From the NCBI GenBank assembly GCA_951406725.2, contig OX597822.1, positions 14,260,001-14,324,000 on the forward strand: a DNA stretch of 64,000 nt, written 5' to 3'. Under the pieces are notes generated by a model. It was not told where the DNA came from, searched no databases, and saw only the letters and a program-made list of their open reading frames with translations. Position 1 is the first letter of the stretch. The number at the start of each line of letters is the position of its first letter. Of the stretch, positions 42,033-48,811 are shown piece after piece. A program made the translations under genes and the position numbers. The stretch is from Octopus vulgaris (taxonomy: Eukaryota).

Positions 42033-42072
42033 TAGGCGCAGGAGTGGCTGTGTGGTAAGTAGCTTGCTAACC
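42033..42072 (+). mobile_element. 5' part of the host SINE A (tRNA head), ending in the left TSD (42057-42072)
   Basis: TAGGCGCAGGAGTGGCTGTGTGGT-AAGTAGCTTGCTAACC. The SINE resumes at 47510. Confidence 0.93.
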
Positions 42073-42461
42073 TCACTGACAGAAGAGTGACTTTGCCTAC
42101 CGTACTACGGTTTGGACGCGTTTTCTTCCCGGTAAGAGTTTTGCTGTGTTGTTAATTGTTGAATTCCTACTACTGAAAATTTGCCTTTAAACGTTGCTGA
42201 ACTGTCTTGTTCTCCGGTTTTACCGGGAAATAATTGAATAATTTCTTACCGTTGAACTGTTAGCCACTGTGGCTTTTTATTTACGTGACTATATATAGTC
42301 CTGCCAGACTATTTTCGTGCCCCTCCCCCGAATGGGGGTGGGAATTGGAATTTTTGAACTGCTTTTTTGAACTACTTTGGAAGAAAAACTTTCTATAGGT
42401 TTCCCAGTTTTGTGGGAAACCAATATTCGTAATTTTTGTGTTGTCTAATTTCAACAGAATA

Positions 42462-43863
42462 ATGTCTGTTGAAATTATTCACGAAAGTAGTGCTCTTGAG
42501 GAGAGCAATGTTAAAAAATTTTCTGAGGTAGCCGCAGTGGCTACCGAGAAGATTGACATCGATGTCAACCAGCTCGTCGAGCTATTTAAAAGAATGCAAG
42601 AGGAGGGTGGTGATGTTAAAATATCACCCTCCGCCAGTATCGTGGAGACCGAGAAGCGGACCGTAGTGTTTAAAACTTTCTGTCCACAAAGCAGAAGGTT
42701 CAAACACTTTGAAAAAAGCACCATCGAGAAATGCCTGTCCCCGATTTGGAAGGACATCGTGTACGTCGCCAGGGGACGGGCATATGGCACTGTGGATGTC
42801 CGCTTCTCGGGGGAAGAAATGGCCCGCGGGCATTCTGTGAACCCCCTAAAAACCAAGGAGGTGGTACTTTTTCCAAGCTATAGGGGACGCAGGTCGTCCC
42901 GGGTCAGGATTGTAGAAGCCCCGCCGGACGTAGATCCGGTAGAGGTAGTGGCCGCCCTGTTATATAAAAGGGCGGACAAAATAAAAATACTAGAAGTAAC
43001 ATGCTCTACCCCTCGAATTTGGCTCGGGCGTAACATTAATATATTAATTCAAGGAACAGCGGAGGACCTGCAGCTCCTTCCTGAGAGGGTGCTCGTGGGC
43101 GAGAACGTAGCCCTCAGGGTACAGGTCGAAGGCCGAAAACCCACCTGTTACGCCTGCAACAAAAAGGGCCACATTCGTGTAGACTGTCCAGACAAGCAAA
43201 AGAAACCGCAGACACCAGGCCCCTCAGATAATAAAAAAGTCCCTACCCTTGCAAACACACCTACCCCTACAAAAACAAAAAATCCCACTCCTGCTGTTAC
43301 GGTGCCAACCCCAAAACAGACTGAAGAAAAACCCAGCCCTCGCACTCACAAACCCCTACACTATTAAAACCTCCCACCCCCCTAAAAACTGCGGCGCCTA
43401 CCGAACAAACTATTGCTACCACAGACGATACCATGGAGGTATCAGAGGGGGATTTACACCAGTTCGTAAAAGAATTCGTGCAGCATCCCCGTCCACATCC
43501 CCTACAAAAAATAATAAAAACAAAGACACACCACAGACACGGAAAAAAAAATCCCGCTCAACTGGCCCAGAAAAAGAAGACAAAAAAGAAAATGAACTCA
43601 TATTAATTGAATTCGACACACAAGACAAATACATAAACGATATTGTGGTTCAGCATCAGTCAGCAAGACTGTACAACAAATACAAAGATCGAAATAGACA
43701 CGCGTGGATTGCGGAAACAACGTTCAAACAATTAAAAGACAGACACCCAAACGCCATCCGGCATATCGCGAACTTGCCGGACTATCTGAAGAAAGAGGAG
43801 AAAGAAGGGGCCCACAAACGTGTGGTGAGGTCGGCCCCCACCTCTCCAACGAAATGTAAGTAG
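42462..43863 (+). CDS. Tx1 ORF1 (gag-like CCHC zinc knuckle), interrupted by two apparent 1-bp deletions
   Basis: CYACNKKGHIRVDC knuckle. Adding one A to the run at 43327-43331 and one G to the run at 43447-43451 gives one 467-aa frame ending 16 nt before ORF2. Confidence 0.8.
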
Positions 43864-43879
43864 AACCTTTACTTTTGTA

Positions 43880-46800
43880 ATGGCTTCGCTTAACCTTGGT
43901 TGTTTAAATGTGCGTGGTCTGAGTTCGAAGTGGAAGCAGGCTTGTTTCCTCGACGACCTCAGATCACATGATATACATGTGATGGTTGCTACAGAGACCA
44001 AGCTGGACAGCCTACAAACCTTCTCGCCTCTCCTGAATGGCTACGAGAAAATCATGTCTCCTGGCCAGACCGGAGGGCGAGGGGGCGTAGTGGTACTGAT
44101 CCGTAAAGACTTGGCTCTACAGACAAGTACAGTCTATGTAGACCCAGAAGGTGGGCTGGTCGTCCTTGATGTGACATACAGCAGTAAGGCCTTCAGGTTA
44201 ATCGGACTCTATGCACCTTGTGCTAGAGGTTTCCAAACTGATTTTTATCGGCGCCTAGAGGGCTTTCTCGTGACGTCGAAGACTTTAGTGATATTAGGGG
44301 ACTTTAATGCTATCGTTGACGTACACATCGATAGCGTTGGCTCGATCTATAGGAAAGTGAACTCACGTCTCGTGGATCTGCTTAAGCGGTTTCAGCTAGC
44401 AGATCGTTACAGACTTGACCATCCGAACGTCCCAGAGTGGACCTGGATGAGTGGCGACGGAAGGTTCAAGTCTTATCTAGACAGGATAGTGATAAGAACT
44501 AGAGATAAGTCTAGTTTTAGTTGTCCACAGCTCGTCCAGGTGCCCTATACTGACCATAGAATGGTCACGTGTAGACTGGACATAGATAGCACGCTTAAGA
44601 TAGGAACCGGCTACTGGAAGCTGAACAAGTCTATTTTGACACGCGAGGCATACCGTAGCCGGATTAAGGTGTTAGTGCAGAGGGCGTTAACCGGAGCCGT
44701 GGTTAATAACCGGTGGTGGTTCACCCTCAAAAGAGCCATTCGATTCGAGTCCATTAGATTTAGTAAACAACTAAGACTAGATAGGGCTAGAATAGAAGGG
44801 CAACTAGTTAAGAACTTAGAGGAGGCGTTGAGGTTGGGCTCTGCATCTCACATTTTAGCGGCGAGAACGGCATTAGACCGTCACCTCAAAACCAAACATG
44901 AGGGATGTAGAGTCCGGGCTAAAGTACGAGCATTGGGCCGTGAGGGAATTAATGTTGCCGGATGGGCCCGTACGATAAAAACACAGCGTGGAAACGATGC
45001 CACAATTGGGTCTCTTGTTGATGAAAACGGATGCACGATCAAGAAGCGGGACGAGATGTGTGAGGCACTCCACAAGCACTTCGCCGAGTTGTTCGGGAGG
45101 TGCGGGACGCTGGATCATGGTGAGGCCCTTAGGGACTCCCTGTCTGGTGGCCCGCGCCTCTCGACACGAGAGGCTGAGTGCTGTGAAGGGCCAATCACAG
45201 CCGAGGAAGTAATCGAGGTGTTGGGCAAGTGCCCCGGGGAGAAGTCGCCGGGTCTCGATGGTCTGCCCTATGAATTTTATAGAAGTATGCCAAACTTGTT
45301 CGGGCACCTGCTGGCTAGCGTCTACGCCAACTGGCAGCAGAATGGGAGAATTCCCAAGTCTGCGAGCCGGGGGGCGGTGACCTTGATCAGGAAGGACCCG
45401 AACAAGGGGGACGAGATAGGGAACTTCAGGCCCATAACTCTGTTAAACACAGAGTTAAAGATTCTGGCCAAGGTGCTAGCAAAAAGGTTGGCGCGGGTCG
45501 TGGACAAACTTGTCGGGGAAGCGCAAACGTGCGCTATCCCCGGCAGAACGATCCACGACAATCTCCACCTTATACGCTACTCCTTAGAGAGGGTGGGGAA
45601 GCTTTCTGGCGCAGGGGGAGCACTGGTACATTTAGACCAGTCCAAAGCATTTGATAGGGTCGACCATCGGTACCTGGCGGCGGTCCTCGGAGAGGCTGGC
45701 CTAGGCCCGACCTTTCGAGGTTGGATCGCTGCTTTGTATAGCGACATCGAGTCTGTAGTCAAGGTGAACGGTTCCTTTTCGAAGCCGTTCAGGATCGAGC
45801 GTTCAGTTCGTCAAGGGTGTCCCCTGTCCTCGCTCCTATACGTATTGGCTCTTGAGCCTTTGCTGCGGAAGTTGGAGGCACTAGGGGGCGCGCCGCATGA
45901 TCTATGGTGTGGAAGAGGAGCTACGGCGTATGCGGATGACACCTCCATCATCGTGGCAGACGAAGGCCAGCTTCCAGTGGTGGAAGAGGCCATAAAAAGC
46001 TACGAGGCGGTGGCAGGAGCAAAGGTTAACAAGGACAAGTCGGTCGGTTTGCAACTCGGCACCTGGAGGGGCAAGCCGATGCCGTCCAATAACGTCGTAG
46101 GGCGTTGGACGGAAGGTCCTGTTAAGCTGCTCGGAGTCTGGTTCGGGCCAGACCTCCAGATTGAGAAAAATTGGAGTGAGGTGGCCAACAAGGTGACCGC
46201 TCTAACCCAGACCTGGTCTGGGCGGGCGTTATCCCTGCTAGGGAAGGCGGAGGTGGTGCAGATGTTTATAGCATCAGTAATCACCTACCGTCTGACCGTG
46301 GTGCCTTGCCCCGATTTGTGGCTGAACAAGTTGGAGAGAATCCTTTTCCGATTTTTGTGGAAAGGAGGAAAGCCACTTGTAAAGCGCTCTGTCTGCTGCC
46401 AGAAACCGCTAAAGGGTGGGCTAGGGATGCCTTGGCTGAGGATGCGAAAACTCGCGTTAAGGTTGAGGCACCTCTGGCTTTACCTGGATGGAGAGCAGGT
46501 GTGGTCGCCGCACGTCCGGTTCTACCTTCCCCAGTTAACATCCCTAACGGACATCGGTGCATGGATCAAGCGGAGACCTAAACTGAGTGAATGGCATTTG
46601 GAGTGCCGTCAGGCGCTCCAGCTACTATCTCGGGTGGGCAACGCCGGCAACAGGAGTTCCACCACGGATTTCTATAGCGGGTTAGTGGAGATTAAGTCCG
46701 AAGACGCCTTGGGGGAGACCCTGGGCTACGATGAAAATCAGTTGATCAACCTGTTCCGGAGGACGTTCGGACCGGGGTATCTGGATAATTACCAGAAATC

Positions 46801-47281
46801 CCTAGCCTGGCAGTGTTTCCGTGCGGCTTTACCTGTTCGCGACAAGCTGTCAAGGCACGGTAGTGCCGTCTCGCCGACATGCCCGCGATGTGAGCAGGAT
46901 AGGGAGACCGTCTTGCACGCATTCGTGGAGTGTCCGGAGTTATCGGGACTGATAGCTTTTGTAGAACAACTGTTGTCAGTGATGGGAAGAGTACAGCTAT
47001 CAGCTGAGTCTATCATCGAGATTGTGCCGCCCCCTTTCCTTAACAGGGAAAGAAAGGCTTGTTTTTTCTGTGTAGTAGCCATACTGAAAGAAACAGTATG
47101 GAAGACGCGTACGAAAGGTATAGTGACAGGCACCTTTGTCTCCGGCCAGGGGTTGATTAACTTTTTTAGTTACCACCTCAGTAGCAAAATCAGGCTGGAG
47201 AAGAGGTGTCTGTCACGAGATATGTTTGTGAAAAGATGGAAGCCTGTGGCATACAAGATGGGTATGTTTGGCACCAGGTAA
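43880..47281 (+). CDS. Tx1 ORF2: APE endonuclease, reverse transcriptase and C-terminal CCHC, 1133 aa, uninterrupted
   Basis: LNVRGL, ETK, GDFN, YLDRI, TDH (APE). KSPGLDG, FRPITLLN, DQSKAFD, RQGCPLS, YADD (RT). CPRC-x8-H-x4-C. Confidence 0.97.
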   Translation: MASLNLGCLNVRGLSSKWKQACFLDDLRSHDIHVMVATETKLDSLQTFSPLLNGYEKIMSPGQTGGRGGVVVLIRKDLALQTSTVYVDPEGGLVVLDVTYSSKAFRLIGLYAPCARGFQTDFYRRLEGFLVTSKTLVILGDFNAIVDVHIDSVGSIYRKVNSRLVDLLKRFQLADRYRLDHPNVPEWTWMSGDGRFKSYLDRIVIRTRDKSSFSCPQLVQVPYTDHRMVTCRLDIDSTLKIGTGYWKLNKSILTREAYRSRIKVLVQRALTGAVVNNRWWFTLKRAIRFESIRFSKQLRLDRARIEGQLVKNLEEALRLGSASHILAARTALDRHLKTKHEGCRVRAKVRALGREGINVAGWARTIKTQRGNDATIGSLVDENGCTIKKRDEMCEALHKHFAELFGRCGTLDHGEALRDSLSGGPRLSTREAECCEGPITAEEVIEVLGKCPGEKSPGLDGLPYEFYRSMPNLFGHLLASVYANWQQNGRIPKSASRGAVTLIRKDPNKGDEIGNFRPITLLNTELKILAKVLAKRLARVVDKLVGEAQTCAIPGRTIHDNLHLIRYSLERVGKLSGAGGALVHLDQSKAFDRVDHRYLAAVLGEAGLGPTFRGWIAALYSDIESVVKVNGSFSKPFRIERSVRQGCPLSSLLYVLALEPLLRKLEALGGAPHDLWCGRGATAYADDTSIIVADEGQLPVVEEAIKSYEAVAGAKVNKDKSVGLQLGTWRGKPMPSNNVVGRWTEGPVKLLGVWFGPDLQIEKNWSEVANKVTALTQTWSGRALSLLGKAEVVQMFIASVITYRLTVVPCPDLWLNKLERILFRFLWKGGKPLVKRSVCCQKPLKGGLGMPWLRMRKLALRLRHLWLYLDGEQVWSPHVRFYLPQLTSLTDIGAWIKRRPKLSEWHLECRQALQLLSRVGNAGNRSSTTDFYSGLVEIKSEDALGETLGYDENQLINLFRRTFGPGYLDNYQKSLAWQCFRAALPVRDKLSRHGSAVSPTCPRCEQDRETVLHAFVECPELSGLIAFVEQLLSVMGRVQLSAESIIEIVPPPFLNRERKACFFCVVAILKETVWKTRTKGIVTGTFVSGQGLINFFSYHLSSKIRLEKRCLSRDMFVKRWKPVAYKMGMFGTR

Positions 47282-47509
47282 GTGTGACCGGATCAGAAAG
47301 TAAAGGTTCTACCCGGATGGCTGGGTGTCCGTCCTTCGACATGATCATTAATATTTTTAAACATTGCCTTCGTAAAATTCATTGTTTATAATCTTATCCG
47401 TAATTTCATTCGAAAATTGTAACTGTGTTAAGCTACTTCACCCTTTATATTTGTCTGTCCTTGTTTGTCCCCTCTTTGTAAATGCCTAAATGGCAAATTA
47501 TATGAAATA

Positions 47510-47647
47510 AAGTAGCTTGCTAACCAACCACATGGTTCCGGGTTCAGTCCCACTGCGTGGCATCTTGGGCAAGTGTCTTCTGCTATAGCCCCAGGCCGAC
47601 CAATGCCTTGTGAGTGGATTTGGTAAACGGAAACTGAAAGAAGCTTG

Positions 47648-47700
<53 letters not shown>

Positions 47701-47933
47701 TGTGTGTGTATATGTTTGTGTGTCGGTGTTTGTCCCCCTAGCATTGTTTGACAACCGATGCTGGTGTGTTTACGTCCCCGTCACCCAGCGGTTCGGCAAA
47801 AGAGTCCGATAGAATAAGTACTGGGCTTACAAAGAATAAGTCTCGGGGTCGATTTGCTCGACTAAAGGCGGTGCTCCAGCATGGCCGCAGTCAAATGACT
47901 GAAACAAGTAAAAGAGTAAAAAGAGTAAAAGAG
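47510..47933 (+). mobile_element. 3' part of the host SINE A, starting with the right TSD (47510-47525)
   Basis: Continues the family A sequence exactly from the duplicated 16-mer. Confidence 0.93.
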
Positions 47934-48178: not shown

Positions 48179-48594
48179 TAGGCGCAGGAGTGGGTGTGTG
48201 GTAAGTAGCTTGCTAACCAACCACATGGTTCCGGGTTCAGTCCCACTGCGTGGCATCTTGGGCAAGTGTCTTCTGCTATAGCCCCGGGCCGACCAATGGC
48301 TTGTGAGTGGATTTGGTAGACGGAAACTGAAAGAAGCCTGTCGTATATATGTATATATATATATATATATGTGTGTGTGTATATGTTTGTGTGTCTGTGT
48401 TTGTCCCCCTAGCATTGCTTGACAACCGATGCTGGTGTGCTTACGTCCCCGTCACTTAGCAGTTCGGCAAAAGAGACGATAGAATAAGTACTGGGCTTAC
48501 AAAGAATAAGTCCCGGGGTCGATTTGCTCGACTAAAGGCGGTGCTCCAGCATGGCCGCAGTCAAATAACTGAAACAAGTAAAAGAGTAAAAGAG
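48179..48594 (+). mobile_element. SINE family A, young subfamily, uninterrupted (shows the empty site)
   Basis: Contains a single GGTAAGTAGCTTGCTAACCAACCAC. Confidence 0.93.
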
Positions 48595-48811
48595 TATATA
48601 TATATATATATACATACATATATATGAAATGTGATAGTTGGGTAGAGAGATACATATACAAGATAACAGGTAACATGTTTGCGTATGAAATCATATGAAA
48701 GAGCACTCAGTTCTTTTTAGTGGAGAGAATAGATTTATACACACATATACATTACTAGATACATGCTTATATATATAGATATATGTGTATGCATGTGTGT
48801 GTGCATTTATG

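What the first reader, a model, noticed from the sequence alone, without database searches (positions are those of the whole stretch)
42033..47933. Full-length, potentially active Tx1 LINE inserted in the tRNA head of a young SINE: candidate SINE/tRNA-targeting retrotransposon
Seen: a 5.44-kb two-ORF element splits a family A SINE between its A and B boxes. It has a perfect 16-bp TSD (AAGTAGCTTGCTAACC, 42057-42072 and 47510-47525), and the empty site is visible in the sister SINE at 48179. ORF2 is uninterrupted with catalytic motifs present. There is no poly(A): AATAA runs straight into the TSD. Known: Tx1-clade APE elements are often sequence-specific (Tx1L in a DNA transposon, Keno in U2, Dewa in tRNA spacers, Kibi/Koshi in microsatellites). 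Inference: this family may use the very abundant SINE as a safe-harbour target, disabling its Pol III promoter. One insertion cannot prove specificity in a SINE-dense genome.
Basis: partly seen in the sequence, partly recalled or inferred. Interest (0 to 1): 0.85.

Follow-up and report, generated by a model that had tools for sequence, protein, structure and literature searches.

The report
LINE guild homing into one SINE
A young jumping gene, in what is likely an octopus genome, lands at the same base of an abundant short repeat in nearly every copy examined; it likely rebuilds that landing site at its own front end, and hundreds of enzyme-less hitchhiker elements use the same spot and stack up there, while its closest relative in the genome inserts at varied places.

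Summary
Observation confirmed and targeting shown genome-wide. Of 116 exact 3' ends of this L1/Tx1-type LINE, 107 were inspected: 106 run into AAGTAG and 105 sit at the SINE-head site or its regenerated copy. Its sister LINE in the same genome has 12 of 12 different flanks.

Two corrections. (1) The 16-nt 'TSD' of full-length copies is partly element-carried: 74 of 75 5' repeats end in TAACC, whereas 34 of 98 3' repeats are TT-type. (2) ORF1 of the window copy has two 1-nt frameshifts, possibly assembly errors.

New here: about 2-kb ORF1-only elements (211 and 38 hits for two 3' ends; 1,142 such junctions in all) share a 3' hairpin and the same site. They stack in arrays far above chance.

Likely mechanism: a sequence-specific APE nick at T^AAGTAG, then R2-like annealing of target-derived cDNA at the 5' end. 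Tx1 elements that target other transposons are known; I found no SINE target in the papers searched, and Repbase was not searchable. This scan's unchecked notes report few-copy SINE-targeting LINEs in other genomes. Verdict: new variant of a known kind.

The parts
42035..42056 (+). 5' piece of the tRNA-derived SINE head, with the A-box-like motif at 42045-42055; inferred nick between T42056 and A42057
   Evidence: head best matches tRNA-Lys(TTT) among 35 tRNA genes sampled
42057..42072 (+). 5' repeat AAGTAGCTTGCTAACC: regenerated target site, with its last bases likely carried by the element RNA
   Evidence: 74 of 75 5' junctions end in TAACC; 12 of 12 do so where the 3' repeat is TTA-type
42073..42461 (+). 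5' UTR; nine runs of four or more T, so unlikely to be read through by Pol III from the SINE head; no Rfam ribozyme match
42462..43863 (+). ORF1 (CCHC zinc knuckle); 466-467 aa in intact copies, cut at 301 aa here by two 1-nt homopolymer deletions near 43326 and 43446
   Evidence: contigs of public runs carry the extra bases
43880..47281 (+). ORF2, 1133 aa: APE endonuclease, reverse transcriptase (YADD), C-terminal zf-RVT; L1 clade
47282..47509 (+). 3' UTR ending GAAATA, no poly(A)
   Evidence: same end in nearly all copies listed
47483..47495 (+). 3' hairpin TGCC-N5-GGCA shared with the ORF1-only hitchhikers; likely the RNA signal bound by ORF2p
   Evidence: 13 of 13 distinct 3' ends pair; two pairs show a change on both sides
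47510..47525 (+). 3' repeat: the locus's own target sequence
   Evidence: varies with SINE subtype across loci
47526..47933 (+). rest of the SINE (B-box-like motif at 47541-47550, internal TA/TG repeat, AAAGAGT tail)
48179..48600 (+). intact sister SINE showing the empty site

Best explanation
This is a young, target-specific L1/Tx1-type LINE family that sits at one nucleotide (GGT^AAGTAG) just 3' of the A box of a tRNA-derived SINE; it likely gets there by a sequence-specific nick and likely carries part of the target on its RNA, so that each insertion rebuilds the site.

Shown: the site specificity; independent insertion into different SINE copies; the family-fixed end of the 5' repeat; ORF1-only elements with the same 3' hairpin and the same site; an excess of stacked arrays; a sister LINE with varied flanks.

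Inferred steps: (1) the APE domain nicks the bottom strand at the AAGTAG motif and RT copies the RNA by TPRT. (2) The top strand is cut up to about 16 nt downstream. (3) The RNA 5' end includes target-like letters, so the cDNA end anneals to the upstream overhang, mismatched terminal bases are replaced, and precise full-length 5' junctions result, as postulated for R2. (4) ORF2p binds the 3' hairpin and so moves the ORF1-only (HAL1-like) RNAs in trans to the same site. (5) The rebuilt site is hit again, far more often than empty SINEs, which gives arrays. (6) The SINE's A and B boxes end up 5.4 kb apart, so that copy would be silent.
For: Specificity: 106 of 107 inspected 3' ends (out of 116) run into AAGTAG. 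All 75 of 75 5' ends found by an independent pattern are preceded by the repeat, 65 after a SINE head and 10 after another element.

Independence: LINE copies differ by 1.2% on average (0.09-2.5%, 29 copies), while the SINE bodies behind them differ by 5.7% from the commonest letter and belong to two subtypes. 5'-truncated copies also sit at the site, two with locus-specific 16-bp TSDs (L041, L123).

Sequence recognition: non-AAGTAG heads make up 8 of 22 empty but 1 of 68 occupied sites (P=3e-5); by-eye counts are 18 of 100 against 3 of 238.

Element-carried repeat: A at position 13 in 74 of 75 5' repeats against 64 of 98 3' repeats (P=5e-9). Other families carry their own variant (CTTCTTACC) over different targets.

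Hitchhikers: 24 of 24 units of 1.5-2.4 kb have no ORF2 similarity, and several keep a 402-415 aa ORF1. That ORF1 is 29% identical to the LINE's over 196 aa. For 3' end B, 100 of 100 listed (of 211) are at the site; for C, 38 of 38 run into AAGTAG.

Control: the sister LINE S (ORF2 65% identical; sister in the RT tree, SH-aLRT 99) has 12 of 12 different flanks, none at this site, and 14-15 bp TSDs in 4 of 6 copies tested.

Literature parallel: passages of PMC3774820 on R2 5' junctions, including the earwig 22-bp downstream duplication carried by all elements.
Against: No biochemistry, and no RNA ends were seen, so where the transcript starts and ends is unknown. The counts come from exact-match patterns and favour young copies. 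Several counts were made by eye from listed rows (100 of 111, 100 of 211, 100 of 49,394). Occupied SINEs are slightly younger than the empty sample (2.1 against 2.9 mismatches in 40 nt), which could explain part of the AAGTAG excess. In some loci a locus-specific letter is kept in the 5' repeat (L109, L135, L062, L126), so the repeat is a mixture and not wholly RNA-derived; one of 75 5' repeats is TT-type. Some truncated copies have no TSD or a small deletion (L002, L033). The reason for the stacking excess is not established. The RT tree is the quick search without bootstrap and holds no named Tx1 element.
Confidence: 0.82

Rival explanations
1. Composite or hitchhiking spread: one LINE-in-SINE unit was copied as a whole (read-through, segmental duplication or gene conversion), so the shared flanks reflect one event.
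For: Almost every copy has SINE sequence on both sides.
Against: SINE bodies vary more than the LINE and fall into two subtypes; flanks beyond the SINE are unrelated; truncated copies have their own 5' junctions and locus-specific TSDs; other families with different bodies use the same site.
Confidence: 0.03
2. Targeting by tethering: ORF2p is brought to SINE heads by Pol III factors (TFIIIC or TFIIIB), as TRE5-A is brought near tRNA genes, and the endonuclease has only loose preference.
For: The site lies next to the A box of a Pol III type-2 promoter. Tethered targeting is a known mode (PMC3706591 passages).
Against: Single-base precision; AAGTAG conservation at occupied sites; insertions at AAGTAG motifs outside SINEs (L123, L111); heavy reuse of sites that have lost their B box; none of 107 inspected 3' flanks is a tRNA gene.
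Confidence: 0.1
3. Arrays arise by template jumping in one reaction: after copying one RNA, RT jumps to the 3' end of a second RNA by way of the shared AAGUAG homology, instead of hitting an occupied site again.
For: 26 of 38 C-type 3' ends (21 of 33 loci) lie directly upstream of another element. Neighbouring units are often of matching age. Units in the C5 array are as close to a unit on another chromosome (0.2-0.8%) as to each other (0.1-0.8%), so they are not simple local duplicates.
Against: A rare locus variant (GGTAACC) is present in all three junctions of L109, including the SINE-side one. The array L035/L070 runs from young to old, 0.4% to about 2% to 5.3% from young copies. Both point to successive insertions.
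Confidence: 0.3
4. The 5' repeat is an ordinary TSD throughout, and the TAACC bias reflects target choice or later mutation.
For: 13 of 31 loci have identical repeats; truncated copies give real 16-bp TSDs.
Against: 12 of 12 loci with a TTA-type 3' repeat have TAACC at the 5' side; 74 of 75 against 64 of 98 overall.
Confidence: 0.04

Closest known systems
Tx1L in Tx1D (Xenopus) and Tx1-Mar in Mariner-N4_AMi (crocodilians), with the SINEU passengers (PMC4494074, passages and part 3 of 5 read)
   Same: APE-type LINE that uses another mobile element as its landing site; non-autonomous passengers share the target.
   Different: The target here is a tRNA-SINE head, at one base, in about 98% of inspected copies (Tx1-Mar and SINEU show a preference for two regions). 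The passengers are ORF1-coding 2-kb elements, not snRNA-headed SINEs. The target is rebuilt and arrays form.
Keno (U2), Dewa (tRNA-Leu spacer), Mutsu (5S), Kibi/Koshi (microsatellites) (named in passages of PMC4494074 and PMC3706591)
   Same: Sequence-specific non-LTR elements in multicopy targets.
   Different: Their targets are host genes, spacers or microsatellites. None of 35 tRNA genes sampled here holds AAGTAG.
R2 elements with upstream-cleaving ribozymes, especially earwig R2 (PMC3774820, passages)
   Same: Uniform 5' junctions explained by target letters on the RNA; a 'duplication' of downstream target sequence is inherited with the element.
   Different: R2 has a restriction-like endonuclease, one ORF and a 28S target. 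No ribozyme match was found here.
HAL1 (half-L1) (PMC5753468, passage)
   Same: Non-autonomous L1 derivative that encodes only ORF1p.
   Different: Here the ORF1-only elements are site-specific, have ORF1s only about 29% identical to the helper's, exchange 5', ORF1 and 3' modules, and stack in arrays.
Dada DNA transposons in tRNA A boxes (PMC3706591, passages)
   Same: Insertion at the A-box region of a Pol III type-2 promoter.
   Different: Dada is a DDE transposon in real tRNA genes; this is a retrotransposon in a SINE.

Membership tests
L1 clade non-LTR retrotransposon | ORF2 with N-terminal APE endonuclease, RT and C-terminal cysteine-rich zinc motif | tested here: met
   Pfam PF03372, PF00078 and PF13966 over cut-off; best PDB match human L1 ORF2p, E 4e-67, against 8e-20 for R2
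L1 clade non-LTR retrotransposon | Separate ORF1 upstream of ORF2 | tested here: met
   467 aa in L034, L038, L046 and L063; 466 aa in L061 and L065; frameshifted in the window copy
Tx1 clade | RT groups with named Tx1 elements (Tx1L, Keno, Dewa, Kibi, Koshi) | not testable with these tools
   No named Tx1 sequence came back; the tree has none
Tx1 clade | Type I ORF1 with CCHC knuckle | tested here: met
   zf-CCHC 23.1 bits against a cut-off of 20.8; consistent with Tx1 per passages of PMC5203782; RRM not detected by Pfam
Target-specific LINE (Kojima criterion: one sequence type in over 20% of flanks) | Shared flank type across independent copies | tested here: met
   105 of 107 inspected 3' ends at the SINE-head site or its regenerated copy; criterion from PMC4494074
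Target-specific LINE | Endonuclease cuts the target in vitro | not testable with these tools
   needs biochemistry
TPRT insertion | True target-site duplication and 5' truncation | tested here: met
   locus-specific 16-bp TSDs in truncated L041 and L123; none in L002 and L033; mixed origin in full-length copies
R2-like 5' attachment | Self-cleaving HDV-like ribozyme at the 5' end | tested here: inconclusive
   No Rfam ribozyme match up to E 5; divergent ribozymes can be missed
HAL1-like non-autonomous elements (the hitchhikers) | ORF1 only, no ORF2, 3' end related to the autonomous partner | tested here: met
   24 of 24 units without an ORF2 hit; shared 3' hairpin and terminus; trans-mobilisation itself is inferred
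tRNA-derived SINE (target) | Head alignable to a tRNA gene with A and B boxes | tested here: met
   Best alignment to tRNA-Lys(TTT), z about 5.9 against shuffles, among 35 tRNAs of 7 isotypes; identity with the published octopus OK SINE is recalled, not tested

The most novel reading that the evidence does not exclude
A self-renewing landing pad: a LINE recently evolved single-base specificity for a SINE's promoter, carries the target on its own RNA so that every insertion makes a new and much hotter target, and thereby supports a guild of over a thousand ORF1-only parasites that queue at the same base in telomere-like head-to-tail arrays. The non-specific sister LINE in the same genome gives a natural before-and-after pair for how APE specificity arises.
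Probability: 0.55. Interest if true: 0.8.

Novelty: new variant of a known kind. Interest (0 to 1): 0.66.

Why it matters
It extends the known targets of sequence-specific APE retrotransposons to a SINE, on about a hundred copies rather than a few. The pair of a specific LINE and a non-specific sister with 58% identical endonuclease domains makes the question of how APE endonucleases gain single-site specificity directly testable by domain swaps. The many loci with different target letters record, base by base, how the 5' end is joined, which is the least understood step of LINE integration. The ORF1-only guild and the strong reuse of occupied sites are unexplained. A precise, mostly full-length inserter aimed at a dispensable repeat is also a candidate scaffold for targeted gene insertion, as R2 is.

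Tried and rejected
- ARAGORN found no tRNA gene in the window.
- Rfam gave only sub-threshold, mostly microsatellite-driven matches, with no ribozyme or tRNA.
- No named Tx1 reference was found in two homolog searches, one representative search and two cluster look-ups, so no Tx1/Keno/Dewa tree could be built. The careful tree did not finish; the quick tree was used and P0091 was dropped.
- Expression: no RNA holder listed on record. The four runs laid were contigs only and cannot show RNA ends. Joints that skip the element come from other SINE copies and say nothing about polymorphism at this locus.
- Christensen 2000 was not held. It, Kojima and Fujiwara 2004, and Ohshima and Okada 1994 were seen only as cited by other papers.
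- No paper reporting a SINE-targeting LINE or an octopus site-specific Tx1 turned up in ten searches (listings read). Repbase, subscription journals and supplements were not seen and may hold it.
- Whether the RNA reaches upstream of the nick: heads at occupied sites differ less from the reference over 14 nt (11 of 644 letters) than empty heads (28 of 308), but age and target choice confound this, so it was left open.
- Simple local tandem duplication as the source of the C5 array: not supported. It remains possible for the three-unit LINE array on C9, whose units are closer to each other than to the window copy.
- No earlier scan note exists for this genome.
Full report
Observation. The window holds a 5437-bp element at 42073-47509 between two copies of AAGTAGCTTGCTAACC (42057-42072 and 47510-47525). 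It splits a SINE between its A-box-like and B-box-like motifs, and the neighbouring SINE at 48179 shows the empty site. ORF2 (43880-47281, 1133 aa) is open and has APE, RT and zf-RVT domains. Its best solved relative is human L1 ORF2p (E 4e-67). ORF1 has a CCHC knuckle but stops at 301 aa, while six other copies read 466-467 aa. The window copy lacks one base in each of two homopolymer runs. Among 29 aligned copies, 77 of 95 one-base indels are in homopolymers, mostly deletions. Contigs of three public runs carry both extra bases and a fourth carries one. These breaks may therefore be assembly errors, which I cannot settle for this locus. Both ORFs are open in 3 of the 38 fetched copies scanned, some of which are truncated.

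Host. The genome is 2.8 Gb. The closest named ORF2 relative is from Argonauta hians (64% over the RT region), so the host is inferred to be an octopod. The SINE head aligns best to tRNA-Lys(TTT) among 35 tRNA genes sampled, none of which contains AAGTAG. That this is the published octopus OK SINE is recalled, not tested. At least 49,394 empty heads exist.

Target specificity. A 20-mer at the element's 3' end, containing no flank, has 116 exact matches. I inspected 107 of them: 100, 4 more, and 3 fetched. Classed by eye, 95 continue directly into the SINE body from the same base, 8 run into the repeat and then another element, 2 are SINE sites with a rearranged or lost body, and 2 are outside SINEs. 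One of those two still sits at an AAGTAGCTT motif with a 16-bp TSD (L123); the other is an old 89%-identical fragment. An independent pattern for the 5' end gave 75 matches, all preceded by the repeat: 65 behind a SINE head and 10 behind another element. The chance of one random hit at this base is about 1e-5 to 1e-4. The copies are independent insertions: they differ by 1.2% on average, while the SINE bodies behind them vary more (5.7% from the commonest letter) and include two subtypes. The first six target bases are more conserved at occupied than at empty heads (1 of 68 against 8 of 22 non-AAGTAG, P=3e-5; by-eye counts 3 of 238 against 18 of 100), though occupied heads are slightly younger. 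This, and the hits outside SINEs, favour direct sequence recognition over tethering.

Internal control. A sister LINE, S, was found in locus L106. Its intact ORF2 (L198) is 65% identical overall and 58% in the EN domain, and it is the sister of this family in a quick RT tree (SH-aLRT 99). Its 12 copies examined have 12 different 3' flanks, none at this site, and 4 of 6 tested have 14-15 bp TSDs. Specificity was thus likely gained on this branch or lost in S; the targets of the outgroup elements are unknown.

The 'TSD' is partly element-carried. In 31 full-length copies the 5' repeat ends in TAACC every time, including 12 of 12 whose 3' repeat is TTA-type; only 13 pairs are identical. Genome-wide, position 13 is A in 74 of 75 5' repeats and in 64 of 98 3' repeats (P=5e-9). 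Other families carry a different fixed variant (CTTCTTACC) over varied targets. Yet truncated copies show true locus-specific 16-bp TSDs (L041, L123) or none (L002, L033), and some full-length loci keep an internal locus-specific letter (L109, L135, L062). The best reading (inferred) is a staggered cut of up to 16 nt whose overhang anneals to target-like letters at the cDNA end, with mismatched terminal bases replaced. This parallels the model for R2, where earwig elements carry a 22-bp piece of downstream target at their 5' end (PMC3774820 passages). No ribozyme match was found.

Hitchhikers. The elements found next to this family at the same site are 1.5-2.4 kb long. None of 24 units has ORF2 similarity, and several keep an open 402-415 aa ORF1 with a weak CCHC knuckle, 29% identical to the LINE's ORF1. 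ESM Atlas look-alikes are CCHC and ZCCHC3-like proteins. They end in the same ...AAATA and share a hairpin TGCC-N5-GGCA that pairs in 13 of 13 distinct ends, with two double-sided changes (only four pairs, related sequences). One 3' end has 211 matches (100 of 100 listed at the site, 98 directly in SINE). Another has 38 (all AAGTAG). A looser pattern that includes the target counts 1,142 junctions, with 0 in the reversed control. These are HAL1-like (PMC5753468 passage); their movement by this family's ORF2p is inferred.

Stacking. With at most about 2% of heads occupied, second hits should be rare. Yet 10 of 75 LINE 5' ends have another element upstream, and 26 of 38 C-type ends (21 of 33 loci) lie upstream of another element (binomial P below 1e-3 and below 1e-26 even at 4%, treating array units as independent). 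Arrays reach six or more units. A rare locus variant shared by all junctions of L109, and a young-to-old order in L035/L070, favour successive re-targeting. The matched ages of many neighbours leave template jumping open. Possible causes (prompt re-nicking by the same protein, open chromatin at the resident 5' UTR, loss of TFIIIC shielding) are untested.

Comparison and novelty. Tx1 elements that target DNA transposons, LTR elements, U2, 5S, tRNA spacers and microsatellites are known (PMC4494074, passages and part 3 of 5; PMC3706591 and PMC3747384, passages). A 2026 annotation of Octopus vulgaris lists 13 recently active L1-Tx1 families, and its main text has no occurrence of 'target' or 'nested' (PMC13282606 passages). 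PMC4758252 and PMC5203782 were read as passages only. Ten searches found no report of a SINE-targeting LINE, but Repbase and supplements were not seen. Unchecked notes of this scan describe similar few-copy cases in other genomes; they are leads, not support. Membership of the L1 clade is met; Tx1 membership fits the domains but could not be tested by phylogeny. Verdict: a real, strongly supported new variant of a known kind, interest 0.66.

Noticed in passing
G000:C1:223694733-223706800 (L211) and G000:C5:78746000-78758400 (L103, L104): Head-to-tail arrays of seven ORF1-only C units on one LINE copy, and of at least six C units on a B unit.
   Followed up: partly
G000:C9:2664500-2680900 (L071, L042, L043): Three full-length LINE copies in tandem inside one SINE, 0.44-0.94% apart.
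   Followed up: partly
L039 (G000:C4:127352300-127359000): Chimera: the 5' UTR and ORF1 of a B element fused to the LINE at its nucleotide 1672, giving a LINE body with a swapped ORF1.
   Followed up: partly
L100:2800-8500 (minus strand), L200, L201: Second autonomous subfamily, about 85% DNA identity, open ORF2 in L100, same target, hairpin with a C-G for T-A change.
   Followed up: partly
L136 (G000:C5:104814800-104818100): A 33-nt SINE-head unit is repeated three to four times upstream of a B element, resembling the tandem upstream-target duplications reported at R2 5' junctions.
   Followed up: no
G000:C1:111116892-111116967: Two element 3' ends in opposite orientation about 25 bp apart; the fetched stretch shows no ORF similarity.
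   Followed up: partly
L167, L176, L168: Sister LINE S has inserted inside ORF1-only elements twice, and once inside the SINE at a different position.
   Followed up: no
L099:2338 onward: An unidentified sequence follows the repeat behind a C unit, possibly a further family using the site.
   Followed up: no
P0202 cluster: Eleven clustered ORF2 proteins of Patella caerulea with near-consecutive locus tags and the same longest-contig length: possibly a tandem array of another site-specific relative.
   Followed up: no
window 1403-62781: The same SINE family has about 15 pieces in this 64-kb window, amid very dense microsatellites.
   Followed up: partly
L058:66-2935 (minus strand): Decayed remains of an unrelated APE-RT LINE next to the array.
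   Followed up: no
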